Assembly (NCBI GenBank): GCA_963700375.1
Contig: CAVOXF010000006.1
Span: forward strand, 348,021-412,020
Origin: an uncultured Actinomycetota bacterium
GTDB lineage: Bacteria > Actinomycetota > Acidimicrobiia > Spongiisociales > UBA5794
Direction of reading: 5' to 3'
DNA length: 64,000 nucleotides
Position numbers and translations under genes: made by a program. Shown here one piece after another: positions 11,021 through 30,542 of the stretch; position 1 is the stretch's first letter; each line of letters begins with the position of its first letter. Under the pieces are notes generated by a model that was not told where the DNA came from, did no database searches, and worked only from the letters and a program-made list of their open reading frames with translations.

Positions 11021-11095
11021 TGGCTGGGGGGACAGGACTCGAACCCGTACTGGATGGACCAAAACCACCTGTGCTGCCAGTTACACCACCCCCCA
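11021..11095 (-). tRNA. tRNA-Gln (anticodon UUG)
   Basis: It folds as a cloverleaf by hand. The acceptor stem is UGGGGGG/CCCCCCA. The anticodon stem is GGUGG/CCAUC and the loop UUUUGGU gives anticodon UUG. The T-loop is TTCGAGT and CCA is encoded. Confidence 0.85.
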
Positions 11096-20581: not shown

Positions 20582-21721
20582 CTATGACGGGGGCGGTTGC
20601 AGATTGCGGGTCTCGGTCGGCACCTCGCCGGCAAACTCGACCTGAGGGAAGTAGCAGGCGACCGGATGGCCTTGGCCCCGATCCTCGAGTGCCGGGATGT
20701 CACCGGCGCACACGTCCTGCGCCTTCCAGCAGCGGGTGCGGAACCGACACCCCGACGGCGGATTTGCCGGACTCGGCACATCACCCTCGAGGACGATTCG
20801 CTTGCGGTCGGCGCGCCCTGCCGGATCCGGAACGGGCACAGCCGAGAGCAGCGCCTGTGTATACGGATGTGCCGTGTTGTCGTAGACCCCGTACTCATCG
20901 CCATGCTCGACGATCTTGCCGAGGTACATCACGGCAATCCGATCGCAGAGGTGACGCACCACCGAGAGGTCGTGGGCGATGAACAGATAGGCGATGCCAA
21001 ATTCGTCCTGGATGTCCTCGAGCAGGTTCACGACCTGAGCCTGGACCGACACGTCAAGCGCCGAGACCGGCTCGTCGGCGATGATGATGCTGGGATCCAC
21101 GGCAAGTGCCCGGGCGACTCCGACGCGCTGCCGCTGTCCGCCGGAGAACTGGTGCGGGTAGCGGTTGATGTGGTTCGGATTGAGGCCGACCACCTCGAGG
21201 AGTTCCTGCGTCCTCTTCCGCCGGTCCTTCTTCGGCGTGGTCCCGTGCACACCCCACGGCTCGGAAATGATGTTACCGACCGTCATGCGGGGGTTGAGCG
21301 AGGCGTACGGATCCTGGAAGATCACCGAGATCTCCTTGCGGAGGTCCCTGAGCTGCCGCTTGTTCATCGAGAAGATGTCCTGGCCCTGATAGTAGGCAGC
21401 GCCATCCGTTGGCTCTTCAAGACGCAGGATCGTGCGCGCCGTCGTCGTCTTGCCACAGCCCGACTCGCCGACCAGGCCGAGGGTCTCGCTGGGGTGGAGG
21501 TCAAACGACACGCCGTCAACAGCCTTGACGTCGCCGATCTTCTTCTTGAAGAGGATCCCCTGGGTGATCGGGAAGTACTTGACGAGACCTTCGACTCGAA
21601 GGATCGGATCCTTCGATGCAGCACCCTTCTTCGTCACGGTCCCATGCTCCACGAGAGCAGCGGCAGCCTCGTGCGGCGAGACGGGCCAATCTTGAGGCTC
21701 CGGCGCGTCATCAGCGGTCAC
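20582..21721 (-). CDS. ABC transporter ATP-binding protein (OppF/DppF-like, with oligopeptide C-terminal domain)
   Basis: It has a Walker A motif GESGCGKTT, an ABC signature, a Walker B motif and a C-terminal oligo_HPY-type region. Confidence 0.85.
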   Translation of the reverse strand: MTADDAPEPQDWPVSPHEAAAALVEHGTVTKKGAASKDPILRVEGLVKYFPITQGILFKKKIGDVKAVDGVSFDLHPSETLGLVGESGCGKTTTARTILRLEEPTDGAAYYQGQDIFSMNKRQLRDLRKEISVIFQDPYASLNPRMTVGNIISEPWGVHGTTPKKDRRKRTQELLEVVGLNPNHINRYPHQFSGGQRQRVGVARALAVDPSIIIADEPVSALDVSVQAQVVNLLEDIQDEFGIAYLFIAHDLSVVRHLCDRIAVMYLGKIVEHGDEYGVYDNTAHPYTQALLSAVPVPDPAGRADRKRIVLEGDVPSPANPPSGCRFRTRCWKAQDVCAGDIPALEDRGQGHPVACYFPQVEFAGEVPTETRNLQPPPS

Positions 21722-22760
21722 GCTGCACCTCCTCCCAGTAGAAGCAAGAACTCTGGTGTCCGTCTCGGCCGATGCTCACCGGTTTGATCTCGTTCTGCGA
21801 ACACCGCGGCTGGACGAACGGGCACCTCGGATGGAACGGACAACCGGACGGGATGTTCAGAAGATCCGGCGGAGCACCCTGAATCGGCAAGAGCCGTTCG
21901 GTATGCATGTCGGTGCGCGGGATCGAGTCCATGAGGCCGAGCGTGTACGGATGGGCCGGATGGTGATACACGTCGTTGATCTCGCCGTCTTCCATGATCT
22001 CACCGGCATACATCACGACGACCCGGTCACAGACTTCGGCCACCACACCGAGGTCGTGGGTGATGAGGATCAGGCCCATGCCGGTGTCCTGCTGGAGATC
22101 GGCCAGGAGTTCCATGATCTGCGCCTGGACGGTGACATCGAGCGCGGTCGTCGGCTCGTCCGCGATCAACACATCGGGATCGAGCGATAGCGCCATCGCA
22201 ATCATCGCGCGTTGGCGCATGCCCCCGGAGAACTCGTGCGGGTAGGCGTTGACGCGCTGGCGAGCGTCGGGGATCCTGACCCGTTCCATCAGGTCGATGG
22301 CCTGCTCCTTCGCCTCCTTCTTGGAGAGGCCGCGGTGCTTGCGGAGCATCTCACCGATCTGCCACCCCACCGTGAAGACCGGATTCAGCGCCGTGAGCGC
22401 ATCCTGGAAGATCATCGCGATCTTCTGTCCGCGCACCTGCTTGGCCATGACGTTTTCGGGCAGTTGCAGCAGATCGACACCCCGGAACTTGACGCTCCCC
22501 TGCGTCACGAAGCCCGGGGGCGTGTCGAGGATCCCCATCACGGCCTGGGCGCTCACGCTCTTGCCGCTGCCGGACTCGCCGAGAATGGCGAGCGTCTCGT
22601 GTTCGTCGAGCGCGTACGTCAGCCCGTTCACAGCCTTGACGATCCCGTCCTCGATCCGGAATTCGACATGGAGATTGTCGACCTCCAGCAAGTGGGCATT
22701 CGGGTCGAATGGCTCGTCGCCGAGTTTGTTGTTCGTCGGTTCGATCGTGGTTGCCATCAC
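21711..22760 (-). CDS. ABC transporter ATP-binding protein (OppD/DppD-like)
   Basis: It has a Walker A motif GESGSGKS, an LSGGMRQR signature and an oligopeptide-type C-terminus. Confidence 0.85.
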
Positions 22761-23767
22761 CGAAGCTTCGGGTCGAGGGCATCGCGGAGTGCGTCACCCA
22801 TGAGAATGAACGAGAACACGGTGATGCTGAGGAAGGCACCGGGGAAGAGAAGTAGGTACGGCGACGTGAGGATGCGAGCCTGGGCGCCGCTGATCATCAA
22901 CCCCCACGAGATCGCCGGAAGCTGCAGCCCGACGCCAAGGAATGACAGCGCCGCCTCCGCAGAGATGACCGCACCGACGGTGATCGTGGCATACACGATG
23001 ACCGGTGCGAGCGAGTTCGGGAGGACGTGCTTCGTGATGATGTGGAGATTGCTCCCACCCATGGAGCGCGCGGCATCCACGTAGTCGGCGGATTTCGCGG
23101 CGATCACGGAGGACCGGACCAGGCGGAGCATGGTGGCCCATCCGAGGATGATGAGGACCAGGCTCACCTGAGCGACACCGCGTGTCGGGAACAGGCTCAA
23201 GATCACGATGCCGCCCAGGATGAACGGGATCACGAACATGATGTCCGTCAACCTGGCGATGATCGTGTCGGTCATGCCTCCGTAGTACCCGGCGGCCGAC
23301 CCGCCGATGAGGGCAATGAGGGTCGCAAAGAAGGTGACGACCAGCCCGATCGTGATCGAGACCCTGGCTCCGTAGATGGTTCGTGCGTAGTAGTCGCATC
23401 CTTGAATGTCGGTACCGAACCAATGCTCGCTGCTCGGAGGGAGCAGCGACTCGGAGAGGCTGCAGGCCCGTGGGTCGATCCTGGTGAACAGGATCGGGAA
23501 CAGCGCCATGACGACCATGATGATGATGAGGCCTGCCGATATCATGAAGATCGGCTTGCGGCGGAGTTGGCGCCAGGCGTCGCTCCAGAGGCTCGCGGTG
23601 CGGGCCTTCTCCTGATTCCCTTCTTCGATCCCAAGGACCGACTCGGTCGGGATTCTGGCTCCCATCGAGAACCGGGAACGGTCCTCCTTCTCGACCTGTG
23701 CCTCCAACGAGGCGGCGTCCTTCGAATGATCGCCGCCCTGCCGTGGGTAGCGCGGATTGTCAGTCAT
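22757..23767 (-). CDS. ABC transporter permease (OppC/DppC-like, BPD_transp_1)
   Basis: It is a multi-TM permease with an EAA-like loop. The start is placed at the ATG at 23767, which gives an ATGACTGA overlap with the upstream permease stop. Confidence 0.8.
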   Translation of the reverse strand: MTDNPRYPRQGGDHSKDAASLEAQVEKEDRSRFSMGARIPTESVLGIEEGNQEKARTASLWSDAWRQLRRKPIFMISAGLIIIMVVMALFPILFTRIDPRACSLSESLLPPSSEHWFGTDIQGCDYYARTIYGARVSITIGLVVTFFATLIALIGGSAAGYYGGMTDTIIARLTDIMFVIPFILGGIVILSLFPTRGVAQVSLVLIILGWATMLRLVRSSVIAAKSADYVDAARSMGGSNLHIITKHVLPNSLAPVIVYATITVGAVISAEAALSFLGVGLQLPAISWGLMISGAQARILTSPYLLLFPGAFLSITVFSFILMGDALRDALDPKLR

Positions 23768-24683
23768 AGCGAATCCGGGGGTCGAGGATGCCGTAGAGGA
23801 GATCGGCAACCAGGTTGGCAAACATGTAGACGACGATCATGAAGGTGGCGATGCCGACCACCACCGTTCCCTCTTGCCGCTGGACACCCTCATAGACCGC
23901 ACGACCGATGCCCGGAAGATTGAAGATGGTTTCCGTGATGATGGCACCGCCCATGAGGGCGCCGAGGTCGATAGCGAGGAAGGTCACGACCGGGATCATC
24001 GAGTTCCGGAGGGCGTGGATCCCCACCACCCGGCGACGGGACAATCCCTTCGAAGTCGCCGTCCGCACGTAGTCGGCCCGCAGGTTCTCGACGAGGCTCG
24101 TCCGCTGGAGCCGGGCAATGTAGGCGAGCGAAAGCGAGCCGAGGACCATCGCCGGCAGGAGGTAGCTGAACCAGCCGTCCCTGACACCCGACACCGGGAA
24201 CCATCCGAGCTTCACGCCAAACACAATCTGGGCGAGGAATGCCAATACGAAGATCGGGATCGCGATGACGACCAGCGTCGAAACCAAGACGAGGTTGTCG
24301 AAGAATTTCCCCTTCCTCACCCCGGCAAGGATCCCGGCGCCGATGCCGATCACCACCTCGAACGCGAAGGCGAGCAACGCGAGGCGAATCGTGACGGGAA
24401 GCCGTTGCTTCAGGAGTTCCGTCACCGGCCGATCGCGAAAGTCGACCCCGAAGTCACCCTGAGCCACATTGGTGATGTAGATCGTGTACTGCTTCCACAG
24501 CGGCTCGTCGAGGTGGTATCGCTCGTTGAGCGTGTCCAGAACCGTCTGGGGCATCACCTTCTCCCCGGCGAGCGCCCGGATCGGATCACCGGGGATCGCG
24601 AACACCAGGGCAAAGATCAAGAATGTGGCACCAAAGAACACGGGGATGAACTGAAGCATCCTACGTGCAATGTATCGGCCCAC
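23760..24683 (-). CDS. ABC transporter permease (OppB/DppB-like)
   Basis: Its N-terminus is VGRYIARRMLQFIPV. A GTG start at 24683 is preceded by GGGAGG. Confidence 0.8.
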   Translation of the reverse strand: MGRYIARRMLQFIPVFFGATFLIFALVFAIPGDPIRALAGEKVMPQTVLDTLNERYHLDEPLWKQYTIYITNVAQGDFGVDFRDRPVTELLKQRLPVTIRLALLAFAFEVVIGIGAGILAGVRKGKFFDNLVLVSTLVVIAIPIFVLAFLAQIVFGVKLGWFPVSGVRDGWFSYLLPAMVLGSLSLAYIARLQRTSLVENLRADYVRTATSKGLSRRRVVGIHALRNSMIPVVTFLAIDLGALMGGAIITETIFNLPGIGRAVYEGVQRQEGTVVVGIATFMIVVYMFANLVADLLYGILDPRIRYD

Positions 24684-24827
24684 GTGTCCTCCCGTTGTCG
24701 TCGGGCACTCTAGTTGATCTGGCACGCACTGTTCGCCAACCGTCCGAGACACAGTTGTGGGGCGGTCGATTGACCGCCCCACAACGTTTCAGGCTTCTTC
24801 CCTGGGACTAACCCTCAAAGTCGGGGT

Positions 24828-26538
24828 TCATTCAGGGTTCATCTCGGCATAGCCGACGATGTTGGAATAGAAGCTGTTGTTCTGCTGACCGTTTGCACCA
24901 TCAGCGCCGAAGCTCCAGGTGCGAACATAATCGGCTGCCGTGATCGGCGTCCCGTCGTGGAAGGTCCACCCGGGGTTCAGAGCAATCGTCCAGGTCTTGC
25001 CACCGTCCTCAGACGTTACCGCCTGCCGCGTGGACCAGGTACTGCTCGTTCGTCTTCGCATTGAAGTTGACGAGCGGTGCGTAGATCGCCCGCAGGACCG
25101 AGATGCCCTCGGACTCGTTGGAGTTCGTGGGGAACAGGTGCTCCGGTTCACTGACGTCCTGTGTGACGTTCCCGTCGATCGACTCGATCAGGGTGTAGCC
25201 GAGATCGTTGTAGGCGTCGATCCACACTTCGCTCACGTCCTCCGACCATACGTACTGGGTCTTGCCGAAGTAGACCGGCATGACCTGCGCGTCCTCACAA
25301 AGCATGTCCTCTGCCGCCCAGTAGTCGGCGAGGCCGTCTTCGAGGAGACCGCTGGCTGCGACCTTCTGAACGCCTGCTGCCAGGGCTGCATCGAAGTCGG
25401 GGTTGTTGTAGAACGTGTTGTTCGAACCGACCGGAGGAGCGTTGTACGAGGCGTACAGCGGCTCGAGGAAGTTGTACGGAGACGGATAGTCCTGGCCCCA
25501 CCCGAGGCGGAACGGACCGGTCGCTTCCTGGTTGTCCAACTTCGGAAGGTACTCGGAGAACTCGAGGGTCTCGAACGTGACGGTGCTCGTGTCGATGCCG
25601 AGGTACTCACCCCACATGTTCACGACCGCCTCGATCCAATCCTCGTGACCGGCACCGCTGTTGAACCAGACGGTGATCGGACCCGGGTCGCCTGCGGCGT
25701 CCCAGAGTTCCTTCGCCATCACCGGATCGAAGTTCCAGCTCGGGCAGACATCCGCACGGCCCTGCAGGTTCGGAGGAACCACTGAGTGCGCGGCGTCACG
25801 GCCACCGAGGAAGATCTTCTCCGCGATCGCCTCGCGGTCGACGGCCATCGAGAGCGCCTGACGGTGCTCCTTGGTGAACTGCGGCAGGTACGTCGGGAAC
25901 CCGAGATACGCGAAGCTCGTCGTGTAGACGTCGTTGTTGCGATCCGGGAAGTCCGTCTGATAGGTCGACAGGTTCTCGGTCGGGACGCTCGCCATCACGT
26001 CGAGGTTGCCGGCCAGCGCCTCGTTGTACGCGGTGGCTATCTCAGCGATGATCTCGAAGTCGAACGTGTCGATCTTCGCGGGATCCGGACCCTGGTAGTC
26101 CGCGTACTTCTCCAGCGAGATGCGCACGTCGTGCTCCCACGGAGCGGCCATCTTGAACGGACCGCTACCTACCGGCATCTCCTCGAAGGCGGCGGGATCT
26201 TCGAATGCCTGCGGGGGCATCGCGAAGTACGCCGCGTACGCCAGACGGAGTGGGAACTCCGGGTCTGCCGCTTCGAGCTCCACCGTGAAGGTGTTGTCAT
26301 CGACGACGGCCATACCTGCCAGCTGGCCCTCCATGGGCTCCGGCGGCGTGGTGTCGTCGGTGGGTGCTGTTGTCGTTGTGTCCGCGGCGGCCGGAGCCGT
26401 CGTGGTTGTCTCTGCGGCGGCCGGAGCCGTCGTGGTTGTCGAATCTGACGTATCGTCCGAATCCCCGCACGCTGCTGCTACAAGAGCAAGAACAGCGAGC
26501 AGGAGAACAAAGCGCCATAGCGATTTCTGTGATCGCAT
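24828..26538 (-). CDS. Family-5 (Opp/Dpp-type) ABC substrate-binding lipoprotein, apparently circularly permuted and frameshifted near 25010-25030
   Basis: It has a signal peptide plus lipobox (LVAAAC) and a T/A-rich linker. Canonical mid and C-terminal regions follow (VVDDNTFTVEL...PVGSGPFK...GWGQDYPSPYNFLEPLY...MPVYF). The canonical N-terminal segment comes last: LRAIYAPLVNFNAKTNEQYLVHAA, then a -1 frame change, then SEDGGKTWTIALNPGWTFHDGTPITAADYV. Confidence 0.7.
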
Positions 26539-26850
26539 GCCTTTCGCCTCCTGGTTGGTGTCGAGCTATCTCGACAATCGCGTGCCCGAGCATCGGACCG
26601 ATCGGTCAACTTGAGAGTGGATCGGCCGCTCCGTGCCCGTTGCACACGACACAATCTACACCGGTTGGCACGTCGAACGCTCCGATCTGCCCAGTTTCCC
26701 CGGTCCGCCGACGACCGCACCGCTGCCGCGCACAGCCTCCGCGGGCGGACGACCATCCGGCCTCGCCGGCAAAGAACCGGCACGCGCGGGTATTGGCCGA
26801 CCGCTGAAAGGCATTGAGGCCGCGACGATCGGCCGGTCGGCCGACACCGC

Positions 26851-27786
26851 CTACCGCTCCAGGAGAGACTCGACCTCGCCGACGGTCGGAGTCGATCGCG
26901 CCCCGGGTCTGGTGATCGTGAGTGCTGCGACCGCGTTGCCCCACCGGAGCGACTCCCCAACCGTTGAGCCACGAAGACGCGCTGCGATGAATCCGGCGTT
27001 GAACGCATCCCCCGCTCCGACACTGTCCACCATCGAGACCTCGAAGCCGGGAGCGACGACCACTTCGTCCGACGAACCGGCAACTGCTCCCTCCGGCCCG
27101 AGACGAGCGACCACGATTCGATCCTCACCAGCGAGTTCGACGGCGGCCGCGACGGGATCAGCGATTCCGGTGAGGGCTCCGACCTCGTCCGACGCGGCTC
27201 CGAGAACCACGTCCGAACATTCGACGGCCGCCTCGACGATCGCGCGGAATCCGTCGTCCCACCCCCAGTTCTCGAGCCGGAGGTTGAGATCGAACGACAC
27301 CGGGATCCCGGAAGAGTTCGCGACCGCCATAGCGTCGAGCAGCGCTTCGCGCGCCGGGGAGACCCGGAGGCAGATCCCGGACACGTGGAGCCACTCGACT
27401 CCGGAGACAGCGTTGACGGCATCGGTCGGAGCAAGGACGCTGTGGGCTCCGCCGATAGGTGGCCACACGTATATGAGTCGGTCGCCGTCCGATTGCACAA
27501 CGGCGATCACCGCGACGGTCGGAGCGTCGGTCGCGACCGACACGGTCGCCGTGTCGACTCCCGCCATTTCGAGGTCCGATACCGCGAACCGTCCAAATGA
27601 GTCGTCGCCGACGCTGCCGGCGAATCCCGTTGCGACACCGAGGCGAGCGAGCGCAGCTGCCGTGTTCGCGGCGGACCCGCCTCCGAACATACGCGGTTCT
27701 GGATTGGCGTGGGTTTCGAGTCGGTGCTCCGACGGGAGGCGGATCTCAATATCGACGTTGGCGTCACCGATCACGAGGACACTCAT
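26851..27786 (-). CDS. PfkB/ribokinase-family carbohydrate kinase
   Basis: It has N-terminal GG and MFGGGSAANTA motifs and a C-terminal VGAGDAFNAGF motif. Confidence 0.85.
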   Translation of the reverse strand: MSVLVIGDANVDIEIRLPSEHRLETHANPEPRMFGGGSAANTAAALARLGVATGFAGSVGDDSFGRFAVSDLEMAGVDTATVSVATDAPTVAVIAVVQSDGDRLIYVWPPIGGAHSVLAPTDAVNAVSGVEWLHVSGICLRVSPAREALLDAMAVANSSGIPVSFDLNLRLENWGWDDGFRAIVEAAVECSDVVLGAASDEVGALTGIADPVAAAVELAGEDRIVVARLGPEGAVAGSSDEVVVAPGFEVSMVDSVGAGDAFNAGFIAARLRGSTVGESLRWGNAVAALTITRPGARSTPTVGEVESLLER

Positions 27787-28457
27787 GTGAGAGCCTCGCT
27801 GTGAGCCGCTTCCCGGAAGCGGGCAACCAGGTCCAGGTCCTTGCTGAACCCGCCGGCCCCCGATGGCCGATTGGTGCGAGTCAATGAATCAACGCCCCAC
27901 GGTCGGACCGCGGCGATCGCTGCCGCCACGTTTTCGGGGTCGAGTCCGCCGGCGAGGATCACCGGCACGCCCACGGCTTCGACGATGGCGGCGCTCACAT
28001 CCCAGTCGTGGACAACGCCCGCTGCGCCGATGCCGGGGATATCGGGTGCGACCGAGTCGAGGATCAGATAGTCGACCACCTGTTCGTACGACCGGGCGAC
28101 GTCGACCGCCTCCGGTCCCGTCACCGCGATCGCCTGCATCACGGCGATGTCCGGCAGCGCGAGTCGCAGGTCGGCGACTGCATCAGGGCCAACCGCGCCG
28201 GACGCCCCACAGAGATGCAGGACATCGGGCTTCACCGTGCGGACCATGTGCTCGATCGCTCGCAGGTCGACCTCCACGCTGAGTGCCACCGATGTCGCAA
28301 TCCCCCCGAGCGATGCGCAGATGTCCTTCGCGAGGTCCAGAGCGATCTCGCCGGGCAGCCCGGTGGCGGCGGGGGTCACGCCCACGTGGTCGACACCGAG
28401 GCCGGCAACCGCCAGAGCCTCATCGACCGACTGCATCGTGTAGACCTGAACCCTCAC
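27783..28457 (-). CDS. Phosphoribosylanthranilate isomerase (TrpF)-like TIM-barrel protein lacking the catalytic Cys
   Basis: It has VHLCGASG and ILAGGLDPENVAAAIAAVRPWGVDS regions matching TrpF. The position of the conserved KICGiT Cys is occupied by VYTMQS. It overlaps the kinase with ATGA. Confidence 0.65.
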   Translation of the reverse strand: MRVQVYTMQSVDEALAVAGLGVDHVGVTPAATGLPGEIALDLAKDICASLGGIATSVALSVEVDLRAIEHMVRTVKPDVLHLCGASGAVGPDAVADLRLALPDIAVMQAIAVTGPEAVDVARSYEQVVDYLILDSVAPDIPGIGAAGVVHDWDVSAAIVEAVGVPVILAGGLDPENVAAAIAAVRPWGVDSLTRTNRPSGAGGFSKDLDLVARFREAAHSEALT

Positions 28458-30465: not shown

Positions 30466-30542
30466 TGGTGGAGGTGAGGGGATTTGAACCCCTGACCCCT
30501 ACGTTGCGAACGTAGTGCTCTGCCGAACTGAGCTACACCCCC
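30466..30542 (-). tRNA. tRNA-Ala (anticodon CGC)
   Basis: It folds as a cloverleaf by hand with a G3:U70 identity pair. The anticodon loop is UUCGCAA and the T-loop is TTCAAAT. CCA is encoded. Confidence 0.85.

What the first reader, a model, noticed from the sequence alone, without database searches (positions are those of the whole stretch)
24828..26538. Circularly permuted family-5 ABC substrate-binding protein
After the signal peptide, lipobox and T/A-rich linker, the protein starts with what is normally the middle of an Opp/Dpp-type SBP (VVDDNTFTVEL...PVGSGPFK...YADYQG). It then runs through the canonical C-terminal region (GWGQDYPSPYNFLEPLY...MPVYFGKTQYVW).

It ends with the segment that normally opens the mature domain (LRAIYAPLVNFNAKTNEQYLV...SEDGGKTWTIALNPGWTFHDGTPITAADYV...GYAEMNPE). 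The very last residues abut, in canonical order, the first residues after the linker (GQLAGMAVVDDNT).

This is the signature of a circular permutation, the outcome expected from a tandem duplication followed by truncation at both ends. I am not aware of such a permutation described for cluster-C SBPs. The two lobes of these proteins are each built from both N- and C-terminal segments, so a permutation could be tolerated structurally.
Basis: partly seen in the sequence, partly recalled or inferred. Interest (0 to 1): 0.7.

Follow-up and report, generated by a model that had tools for sequence, protein, structure and literature searches.

The report
Circularly permuted peptide-binding lipoprotein (DppA-like)
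The gene encodes the binding protein of a peptide ABC importer whose chain order is rotated: the usual first ~115 residues sit at the end. This order is conserved in a whole clade of Acidimicrobiia, and related Actinobacteria carry other rotations of the same protein, which I could not find described in the literature.

Summary
The gene (minus strand, 24828-26538) is 1711 nt. Two near-identical assemblies (99.7-99.8 %) carry the intact 569-aa gene.

Against M. tuberculosis DppA, residues 71-441 align to chain 127-503 and residues 464-567 align to chain 17-118. Moving the last 114 residues to the front gives one colinear alignment (E 6.5e-75).

All 120 best database homologues (52-100 % identity, Acidimicrobiia metagenome genomes) share the permuted order. 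dN/dS is 0.08-0.19 in both parts. AlphaFold2 gives pLDDT 89.5 and pTM 0.83. No PDB entry is colinear with the protein. The gene heads an intact dppBCDF-like operon, and the peptide-contacting Trp and Asp are invariant.

Relatives show three further permutation types with different cut points. Each has its own signal peptide and heads its own operon. One type is widespread in cultured Actinomyces. Each type groups with canonical proteins rather than with the other types, so the events look independent.

The only natural precedent I found is Treponema MglB-2, a cluster B binding protein. Verdict: a new topological variant of a known family. Interest 0.62.

The parts
26467..26538 (-). Signal peptide and lipobox (residues 1-24, lipidated Cys24). 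An AGGAGG ribosome-binding site lies 8 nt upstream.
   Evidence: Sequence. Cys24 is invariant in 100 homologues.
26329..26466 (-). Low-complexity T/A/P/E/D tether linker (residues 25-70). It contains a 30-nt tandem repeat at 26375-26440.
   Evidence: AlphaFold2 pLDDT is below 50 for residues 22-63 of the homologue.
25180..26328 (-). Canonical middle and C-terminal part of the cluster C binding protein (residues 71-453; segments S2-S5). It includes the peptide-contacting Trp/Asp motif RLGWGQDYPS at 25480-25509.
   Evidence: PF00496 HMM 46-366, E 1e-47. Aligns to Mtb DppA 127-503. The Trp and Asp are invariant and correspond to W442/D445 of Mtb DppA.
25174..25179 (-). Two-residue junction (Ile-Asp) that joins the canonical C-terminus (…GYTLIES) to the canonical mature N-terminus (GNVTQDV…).
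   Evidence: Sequence. Comparison with the termini of canonical relatives. pLDDT is 91-98 across the junction.
25027..25173 (-). Relocated N-terminal segment, first part (residues 456-504), still in the ORF1 frame.
   Evidence: Aligns to Mtb DppA chain 17 onward. 100 % identical to P0392.
25026..25027 (-). Site of the single extra G that shifts the frame (one of these two G bases).
   Evidence: It is the only difference inside the gene between the window and L008 or L009. It is also seen against L001-L003.
24831..25025 (-). Relocated N-terminal segment, second part (65 residues, QAVTSEDGG…GYAEMNPE), in the other reading frame.
   Evidence: PF00496 HMM 11-61, E 2.8e-11. The string matches residues 505-569 of P0392 exactly; tblastn places P0392 480-569 in frame -3.
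25009..25011 (-). Premature TGA that ends the 509-aa ORF1 in the window as assembled.
24828..24830 (-). True stop codon of the intact gene.
24754..24785 (-). Perfect 14-bp GC-rich hairpin in the 168-nt spacer between the binding-protein gene and the permease gene. It has no T tract. It is likely an mRNA-stabilising or partial-termination element.
   Evidence: Fold energy -45.5 kcal/mol, z -5.2. A palindromic match is conserved in L002.
20582..24659 (-). Four downstream transporter genes: a DppB-like permease (about 23760-24659), a DppC-like permease (22757-23821), and two ATPases with an oligo_HPY domain (21711-22760 and 20582-21721). All are intact.
   Evidence: Pfam. Single-frame tblastn matches to relatives. 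Gene calls in L008.

Best explanation
The gene encodes the membrane-tethered lipoprotein substrate-binding protein of a five-gene Dpp/Opp-type peptide ABC importer. The protein is a natural circular permutant of a DppA-like cluster C binding protein (Pfam PF00496).

The chain starts with a signal peptide, a lipidated Cys and a ~45-residue flexible linker. It then enters the fold in the middle of the N-lobe extra domain, at the strand LxGMxVVDD. It runs through the rest of the N-lobe, the C-lobe and the canonical C-terminal strands. Two residues later it continues with the canonical first strand and the next ~110 residues. It stops at …GY(A/D)EMNPE.

That stop is exactly where canonical relatives have a long Pro/Glu/Thr-rich surface loop. 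The old termini are therefore fused and new termini are opened in that loop.

Shown here:
- the permuted order
- its conservation across a clade
- purifying selection on both parts
- a confident predicted fold
- the operon context
- conserved peptide-contacting residues

Inferred:
- The protein binds short peptides and delivers them to DppBC like its canonical relatives.
- The permutation arose from an in-frame fusion of tandem copies followed by loss of the first N-segment and of the second copy's remainder. This may have been helped by the similarity between the lipoprotein linker and the low-complexity loop.
- The main physical consequence is that the lipid tether now leaves the protein from a different surface point.

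The copy in this window carries a 1-nt insertion. This is most likely an assembly error (about 70 %). Otherwise it is a very recent inactivating mutation.
For: Order:
- Pfam hits are split with reversed HMM coordinates.
- phmmer against PDB gives two stretches in swapped order relative to Mtb DppA.
- The rotated sequence gives one stretch, 9-484 against 18-503, E 6.5e-75.

Conservation:
- 120 of 120 best hits are permuted.
- 114 full-length type A sequences were found.
- Independent assemblies L001-L004, L008 and L009 share the order.

Selection: dN/dS is 0.08-0.19 in both the middle/C part and the relocated N segment.

Fold:
- AlphaFold2 gives pLDDT 89.5 and pTM 0.83, with the junction above 90.

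Function:
- The DppB/C/D/F genes downstream are intact.
- The Trp and Asp equivalent to Mtb DppA W442/D445 are invariant.

Cut site: canonical relatives P0122, P0124 and the L005/L006 ORFs have a 15-35-residue acidic/Pro loop exactly between GY(D/A)E(M/V)NP and L(S/T)GLxVVDD.

Frameshift: a single extra G is the only difference from L008 and L009 inside the gene. The neighbouring genes have no frame breaks.
Against: - There is no experimental structure or binding data.
- The window copy itself is not an intact ORF.
- No tandem-fused duplication intermediate was found among the 150 best cluster representatives. The long hits P0155 and P0202 are other fusions, and P0417 is a frameshift artefact.
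- The substrate is inferred from 36 % identity to Mtb DppA.
Confidence: 0.9

Rival explanations
1. The permuted order is an assembly or gene-calling artefact, for example a chimeric join of two tandem family 5 binding-protein genes.
For: The window does contain a sequence defect (a 1-nt indel) inside the gene. Some related Actinomyces genes are broken at contig ends.
Against: - The same order occurs in more than 100 homologues from JGI, ENA, NCBI and Logan.
- It occurs in an 820-kb contig and in an independent short-read contig at 99.7-99.8 % identity.
- Every copy has a signal peptide and linker fused in frame to the mid-protein start, and a stop followed by the permease gene.
- Both parts are under purifying selection.
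- The AlphaFold2 model is confident.
Confidence: 0.02
2. In this particular strain the gene is a real, very recent pseudogene. The extra G is genuine, and the 509-aa product lacks the last 65 residues of the relocated segment and is non-functional.
For: The frameshift is in the deposited sequence, and the 509-aa ORF is itself a database entry (P0002). The insertion is not in a long homopolymer (GCG[G]CAG). The window and L008 are distinct strains, with 15 SNPs in 7.7 kb.
Against: - There are no other changes in 1.7 kb of gene relative to L008.
- The out-of-frame tail is 100 % identical to the intact protein.
- The four downstream transporter genes are intact.
- The only other indel in the 7.7 kb compared is in a C-run in an intergenic region, which is the pattern of long-read consensus errors.
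- The short-read contig L009 has the intact version.
Confidence: 0.28
3. The C-terminal segment was acquired from a different family 5 gene by recombination or domain shuffling rather than by rotation of one gene. This is the possibility Brautigam et al. raised for TpMglB-2.
For: Duplication intermediates were not found. In TpMglB-2 the permuted part is poorly conserved relative to canonical MglB (PMC4990184).
Against: - The relocated segment and the rest of the protein have similar identity to the same nearest canonical relative. For P0122 the values are 40-41 % and 47 %.
- The two parts co-vary in identity across the whole family.
- Their dN and dS values are the same.
- In the Actinomyces type C proteins the new termini and the junction match contiguous sequence of canonical congeners residue by residue.
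Confidence: 0.05
4. The frameshift is programmed: ribosomal +1 frameshifting yields the full-length protein.
For: The full-length frame is preserved downstream of the shift.
Against: Near-identical strains and all other family members have a plain continuous ORF at this site. There is no slippery motif and the site is not conserved.
Confidence: 0.01

Closest known systems
Mycobacterium tuberculosis DppA (Rv3666c; PDB 7JLS, 6E3D, 8WD9), a cluster C lipoprotein binding protein of the DppABCD peptide/heme importer
   Same: - Both are lipoproteins.
- Both sit in the same operon type.
- The peptide-contacting W442/D445 are conserved.
   Different: Mtb DppA has the canonical order. Its short N-terminal loop runs from Cys25 along DppB TMH2 and is recognised by the permease (PMC10954201). 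In the window protein the tether is a ~45-residue disordered linker that enters the fold about 110 residues 'later', in the extra domain of the N-lobe, and the canonical termini are fused.
Treponema pallidum Tp0684 (MglB-2), the founding 'Cluster Bc / Type Ic' circularly permuted binding protein (Brautigam et al. 2016, PMC4990184)
   Same: - It is a natural circular permutation of an ABC-transporter binding lipoprotein.
- The first ~100 canonical residues are moved to the C-terminus.
- The permutation is shared by a clade.
- The authors suggest a link with membrane tethering.
   Different: It belongs to a different structural cluster (B, sugar binding). It needs a fourth hinge crossing. Its permuted part has weak sequence similarity to the canonical N-terminus. 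Only a single permutation type has been described.
Other permuted forms of the same DppA-like subfamily found here: type B (P0126, P0140), type C (P0213; P0264/P0428 in Actinomyces) and type D (P0135)
   Same: - They have the same fused C-to-N junction.
- Each has its own signal peptide, lipobox and linker.
- Each is the first gene of a dppBCDF-like operon.
   Different: The cut points lie at three other loops, all in the C-lobe (about residues 225, 285 and 340 of P0001). Each type groups with different canonical proteins.
Engineered circular permutants of periplasmic binding proteins, and PDZ domains with four natural permuted forms (CIRPIN, PMC13552848)
   Same: Both show that the bilobed fold, and other folds, tolerate relocated termini. 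The PDZ case shows that several natural permutations of one fold can coexist.
   Different: The engineered permutants are artificial. The CIRPIN main text does not mention binding proteins.

Membership tests
Cluster C substrate-binding protein / Pfam PF00496 (SBP_bac_5) | Significant match to the PF00496 profile above the gathering score | tested here: met
   163.5 bits for ORF1 and 43.6 bits for the downstream frame, against a cut-off of 32.4. 207 bits for the intact homologue P0001.
Cluster C substrate-binding protein / Pfam PF00496 (SBP_bac_5) | Three-domain OppA/DppA-type fold | tested here: met
   [not shown]
Cluster C substrate-binding protein / Pfam PF00496 (SBP_bac_5) | Canonical N-to-C order of the chain segments | tested here: not met
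   Segment order is S2-S3-S4-S5-S1. This is the finding itself. It makes the protein a topological variant of the family rather than a non-member.
Cluster C substrate-binding protein / Pfam PF00496 (SBP_bac_5) | Encoded with Opp/Dpp-type permeases and oligo_HPY ATPases | tested here: met
   BPD_transp_1 (twice), OppC_N, and ABC_tran with oligo_HPY (twice) lie directly downstream.
Cluster C substrate-binding protein / Pfam PF00496 (SBP_bac_5) | Peptide-contacting Trp/Asp motif (Mtb DppA W442/D445) | tested here: met
   GWGQDYPS aligns to GWRGDYPS. W348 and D351 are invariant in 100 sequences. Their role is taken from PMC10954201.
Cluster C substrate-binding protein / Pfam PF00496 (SBP_bac_5) | Actual binding of peptides and delivery to the transporter | not testable with these tools
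   Needs ITC or DSF with peptides and uptake assays.
Natural circular permutant | Two segments each significantly homologous to the reference but in swapped order | tested here: met
   i-E 1.3e-58 and 4.4e-14 against Mtb DppA, with the order reversed.
Natural circular permutant | Rotation of the sequence restores one colinear full-length alignment | tested here: met
   One stretch, 9-484 against 18-503, E 6.5e-75. The alignment is also a single stretch for OppA, YliB and MppA.
Natural circular permutant | Original termini joined by a short connector; new termini at a surface loop | tested here: met
   …GYTLIES-ID-GNVTQDV…. The cut lies at the long loop of canonical relatives.
Natural circular permutant | Same three-dimensional structure shown by non-sequential superposition | tested here: inconclusive
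   Only sequential aligners were available. They align 374-403 residues, which is what a permutant should give. No CP-aware superposition was possible.
Permutation by duplication and truncation (origin model) | Existence of tandem-fused, full or partial duplicate intermediates | tested here: not met
   None were found among the 150 best 50 %-cluster representatives. The long proteins are a kinase fusion (P0155), an N-terminal extension with no Pfam match (P0202) and a frameshift fusion (P0417). Only a small part of the 22,028 homologues was inspected.
TpMglB-2-type 'Cluster Bc' binding proteins | Cluster B (type I) sugar-binding fold | tested here: not met
   [not shown]

The most novel reading that the evidence does not exclude
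DppA-like cluster C binding lipoproteins of Actinomycetota have been circularly permuted repeatedly and independently. There are at least five events at four different cut points. They include a clade-wide form in Acidimicrobiia (this window) and a form that is common in cultured human-associated Actinomyces.

All forms keep the same fused old termini, and each acquires the lipid tether at a new surface loop. As far as I could find this has not been described.

It would make this family a natural series of permutants for asking how tether position, and the recognition of the binding protein's N-terminal region by the permease, matter for tethered ABC importers. It would also allow study of how permutations arise in secreted lipoproteins.
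Probability: 0.6. Interest if true: 0.75.

Novelty: new variant of a known kind. Interest (0 to 1): 0.62.

Why it matters
1. As far as eight full-text searches could show, it would be only the second natural circular permutation reported for an ABC-transporter binding protein, and the first in cluster C. Cluster C is the largest and most complex of these folds.

2. It is not a curiosity of one contig. It defines a conserved clade, and sister lineages carry three other rotations of the same protein. One of these is in cultured Actinomyces and is 51 % identical to the well-studied Mtb DppA, so experiments are feasible.

3. [quoted passage not shown] Natural permutants move that tether to other points of either lobe. 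They therefore test that proposal.

4. The natural cut sites mark positions that tolerate new termini. This is useful for biosensor design with family 5 scaffolds.

Tried and rejected
- The look-up of encoding contigs for the 509-aa ORF (P0002) returned nothing. The intact sister protein P0392 was found only through the cluster listing.
- The afdb50 fold library was not available. I therefore could not list UniProt/AFDB members or their annotations.
- A profile of the fused C-to-N junction from the non-A types (alignment A3) was searched to pull out all permuted forms. The word prefilter returned mostly short fragments. About 10 hits spanned the junction (P0269-P0276, P0160, P0299). It gave no family sizes.
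- Duplication intermediates were sought among the long hits. P0155 is a Ser/Thr kinase fused to a family 5 domain. P0202 has an N-terminal ~400-residue extension with no Pfam match. P0417 is a frameshift fusion of the binding protein with the permease. None is an intermediate.
- Misassembly, programmed frameshifting and acquisition of the segment from another gene were considered and rejected (see rivals).
- The promoter and terminator scan found no sigma-70-like promoter or canonical terminator upstream of or after the gene. Rfam found nothing in the region beyond a chance sub-threshold hit.
- Eight literature searches found no description of a natural permutation in OppA/DppA-type proteins. 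The library lacks many subscription papers, and the 18-million-pair CIRPIN-DB could contain such pairs unremarked.
- The neighbour-joining tree is only a rough phylogeny (identity and BLOSUM distances, 50 bootstraps). The separate origin of the two type B proteins, and of P0157 relative to the main type A clade, is unresolved.
Full report
**What is in the window**

On the minus strand, the ORF listing gives a 509-aa ORF at 25009-26538. It starts MRSQKSLWRFVLLLAVLALVAAAC (signal peptide and lipobox), followed by a T/A/P/E-rich linker. A second, overlapping 107-aa ORF lies in another frame at 24828-25151, and its last 65 residues read QAVTSEDGGKTWTIALNPGWTFHDGTPITAADYV…GYAEMNPE.

Every quoted peptide is present and in the stated order. 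The frameshift was not noticed.

**The frameshift**

Alignment with three 84-85 % identical loci from Acidimicrobiia metagenome genomes (L001-L003) shows one extra base in the window, at CACGCG[G]CAGGCGG.

The cluster listing of the closest intact homologue turned up P0392 (569 aa). It is identical to the window's ORF1 over residues 1-504 and to the out-of-frame tail over residues 505-569. P0392 is encoded on an 820,706-bp ENA contig (L008, 99.78 % identical over 7.7 kb) and on an independent short-read contig (L009, 99.67 %). Inside the gene, the only difference from the window is that one G at 25026/25027.

The neighbouring genes show no frame breaks against relatives. I read the frameshift as most likely a consensus error of the window's assembly (about 70 %). 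Otherwise it is a very recent null allele. The data here cannot decide between these.

**Is it a circular permutation?**

Yes. Four lines of evidence agree.

- **Pfam.** PF00496 matches ORF1 residues 57-367 at HMM positions 46-366 (E 1e-47). It matches the downstream frame at HMM positions 11-61 (E 2.8e-11).
- **Pairwise alignment.** For the intact homologue P0001 (89 % identical) against the PDB, residues 71-441 align to chain 127-503 of M. tuberculosis DppA (i-E 1.3e-58). Residues 464-567 align to chain 17-118 (i-E 4.4e-14). The order is swapped.
- **No colinear solved structure.** Every other PDB hit matches only one part or shows the same split.
- **Rotation test.** I moved the last 114 residues of the corrected window protein to the front. 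It then aligns as a single stretch, 9-484 against 18-503 of Mtb DppA (E 6.5e-75). It also aligns as a single stretch to B. subtilis OppA and to E. coli YliB and MppA.

The canonical C-terminus (…GYTLIES) is joined through two residues (ID) to the canonical first strand (GNVTQDVSEPEH…). The chain ends at …GYAEMNPE.

Canonical relatives continue from that motif through a 15-35-residue Pro/Glu/Thr/Asp-rich loop into L(S/T)GLxVVDD. That motif is the first structured element after the linker in the window protein. The new termini therefore lie in a long, probably flexible surface loop of the extra domain of the N-lobe.

**Is it real and functional?**

- **Distribution.** All 120 best hits among 5.8 billion clustered proteins share the order. 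They have 52-100 % identity and lengths of about 570 aa. They come from JGI, ENA, NCBI and Logan, and the named ones are Acidimicrobiia or Actinomycetota metagenome genomes. In all, 114 full-length type A sequences were classified.
- **Selection.** Among L008 and L001-L003, dN/dS is 0.08-0.15 for the middle/C part and 0.08-0.19 for the relocated N segment. The relocated piece is as constrained as the rest.
- **Predicted fold.** AlphaFold2 with 100 homologues gives mean pLDDT 89.5 and pTM 0.83. Only the signal peptide and linker are disordered, and the junction scores 91-98.
- **Operon.** Downstream lie intact DppB-like and DppC-like permeases and two oligo_HPY ATPases.
- **Binding residues.** Mtb DppA W442 and D445 contact the bound peptide, and their mutation lowers transporter ATPase activity (PMC10954201). 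The equivalent GWGQDYPS Trp and Asp are invariant in the family.

The best-supported function is therefore a tethered peptide-binding protein feeding a Dpp-type importer. Ligand identity is inferred, not shown.

**Wider finding**

A full HMMER scan of 1.84 billion cluster representatives showed canonical-order relatives starting at about 49 % identity. It also showed proteins whose best stretch mapped query residues 226-570, or 282-567, onto their own N-terminal halves.

I cut a canonical relative (P0122) into five segments, S1 to S5, and located each by BLAST. This gave four rotated orders:

- **Type A:** S2-S3-S4-S5-S1 (the window's type).
- **Type B:** S3-S4-S5-S1-S2 (P0126; P0140, with six cluster members of about 595 aa).
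- **Type C:** S4-S5-S1-S2-S3 (P0213, three members; P0264).
- **Type D:** S5-S1-S2-S3-S4 (P0135, a single sequence).

Pfam coordinates agree with these orders. Each protein has its own signal peptide, lipobox and linker. Each is the first gene of a dppBCDF-like operon on its contig.

A search with P0264 showed that type C is widespread in cultured Actinomyces: A. gerencseriae, A. gaoshouyii, A. ruminicola, A. respiraculi, A. wuliandei, A. bovis and others. Of 118 sequences classified from that search (query included), 82 were type C. Other Actinomyces (A. glycerinitolerans, A. oricola, A. qiguomingii), together with Georgenia, Xylanimonas and Cellulomonas, have the canonical order at about 50-55 % identity.

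In these Actinomyces proteins the match is residue-exact.

- The type C C-terminus …AEAISPF* corresponds to the canonical internal …ADAISPF-SGSFTIAYNSDGPHK.
- The type C start GGRLTLAYNSDGPHK corresponds to what follows that point in the canonical protein.
- The junction …YDSITTTASDGVVRANGTEPQNPL equals the canonical C-terminus …YYAITKA* plus the tail of the canonical linker …ADGVVTALGTEPQNPL.

I rotated all sequences into canonical order and aligned them (494 columns). In that alignment each permuted type has a canonical protein as its nearest neighbour:

- P0213 is 54.6 % identical to canonical P0196, against 39 % or less to any other permuted type.
- P0135 is 55.2 % identical to canonical P0134.
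- P0264 is 47.8 % identical to canonical P0159.

In 50 neighbour-joining bootstraps, monophyly of all permuted proteins was never recovered. The main type A clade was recovered 50 of 50 times, P0135 with P0134 48 of 50, and P0213 with P0196 49 of 50.

This points to at least five independent permutation events, subject to the crudeness of the tree. Whether the two type B proteins, and the divergent type A protein P0157, arose separately is unresolved.

**How it probably arose, and what it changes (inference)**

The standard route is an in-frame fusion of tandem copies followed by loss of the outer parts. The direct C-to-N junctions fit this route. So does the residual linker tail at the Actinomyces junction.

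For type A, the lipoprotein linker (TTTTAPAAAE repeats, encoded by a 30-nt tandem repeat) resembles the Pro/Thr/Glu-rich loop at the cut site. Recombination between these two could have removed the first N segment precisely. No intermediate was found.

In Mtb DppABCD the N-terminal loop and lipid anchor of DppA run along DppB TMH2 and were proposed to be needed for assembly. DppA docks through its hinge and N-lobe. In the permutants the tether leaves from the extra domain of the N-lobe (type A) or from C-lobe loops (types B-D).

In Actinomyces the type C linker is about twice as long as that of canonical congeners, about 24 against about 12 residues. Whether relocation of the tether is adaptive or neutral is unknown. 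The same idea was raised for TpMglB-2.

**Comparison with what is known**

The protein meets the Pfam, fold, operon and binding-residue tests for a cluster C / PF00496 binding protein. It fails only the canonical chain order.

The one natural permuted ABC binding protein I could find in the literature is Treponema pallidum MglB-2, the 'Cluster Bc' founder (PMC4990184). It has a different fold class and a single permutation type.

Eight full-text searches found no description of a permuted OppA/DppA-type protein. A 2026 systematic survey of circular permutations (CIRPIN, PMC13552848) does not mention binding proteins in its text, although its bulk database might contain such pairs.

The sequences themselves are public and are annotated simply as 'ABC transporter substrate-binding protein'.

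**Verdict**

The novelty class is a new variant of a known kind. Interest is 0.62. It is raised by the clade-wide conservation and the recurrent, independent permutations, including those in cultured Actinomyces. It is limited because circular permutation is a known phenomenon and the function appears ordinary.

Noticed in passing
Related proteins P0126, P0140 (L010 5001-6788), P0213/P0403 (L011 1276-2985), P0264 (L013 2807-4444), P0135 (L012 721-2379), P0428: Three further circular-permutation types of the same DppA-like subfamily, with different cut points. Each has its own signal peptide and linker and heads a dppBCDF-like operon. Type C is widespread in cultured Actinomyces species, while other Actinomyces keep the canonical order.
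   Followed up: yes
window 24754-24785 (minus strand): A perfect 14-bp GC-rich hairpin (GUUGUGGGGCGGUC-AAUC-GACCGCCCCACAAC; z -5.2) lies in the 168-nt spacer between the binding-protein stop and the likely permease start (ATG at 24659). It has no T tract. It is conserved as a palindrome in L002. It may stabilise the binding-protein mRNA or partly terminate transcription.
   Followed up: partly
window 26375-26440: A 30-nt tandem repeat (2.2 copies, 94 % match) encodes the TTTTAPAAA(E/D) units of the lipoprotein linker. Its composition resembles the low-complexity loop at the permutation cut site of canonical relatives.
   Followed up: partly
window 28722/28723: This is the only other indel between the window and the 99.78 % identical contig L008 in 7.7 kb. 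It is an extra T inside a C-run (CCCC[T]GTCCCCCC) in an intergenic region. This is consistent with consensus indel errors in one of the two assemblies.
   Followed up: no
window 23760-24782 (minus strand): The mechanical ORF for the DppB-like permease starts at a GTG inside the hairpin (340 aa). Relatives and the gene call in L008 indicate the real start is the ATG at 24659 (299 aa, MLQFIPVFFG…).
   Followed up: partly
P0155 (930 aa) and P0202 (876 aa), representatives: P0155 is a Ser/Thr protein kinase domain (Pkinase, residues 13-266) fused to a complete canonical DppA-like family 5 domain (residues 472-848). This suggests a peptide-sensing receptor kinase. P0202 has an N-terminal ~400 residues with no Pfam match ahead of the family 5 domain.
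   Followed up: partly
P0270 cluster (18 members, Actinomyces; includes WP_021606285.1 from A. johnsonii F0510) and P0417: Of the 15 members listed, all but one are truncated at 157-411 aa. P0270 itself runs into the repeat-derived peptide …RSEERRVGKECRSRWSPYH. P0417 (856 aa) is a frameshift read-through that fuses the binding protein to the permease. This suggests the locus is hard to assemble or annotate in oral Actinomyces.
   Followed up: no
P0394 and P0395 (494 aa; contigs of 375 kb and 238 kb, the latter being the contig of L003): Gene callers started these type A genes at the internal Met of M(A/T)VVDDNTF. This drops the signal peptide and linker, although the full ORF is open in L003. 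The low-complexity linker seems to mislead start prediction.
   Followed up: partly
window 24940-25785 (+), 25786-26448 (+), 26633-27790 (+) and others: Long antisense or overlapping ORFs of 220-385 aa opposite the real genes. They are typical high-GC artefacts with Arg/Gly/Pro-rich translations, not genes.
   Followed up: no
window 11021-11095 and 30466-30542 (minus strand): tRNA-Gln(TTG) and tRNA-Ala(CGC) are the only Rfam or ARAGORN hits in the 64-kb window. No other member of this family 5 subfamily is encoded in the window.
   Followed up: yes
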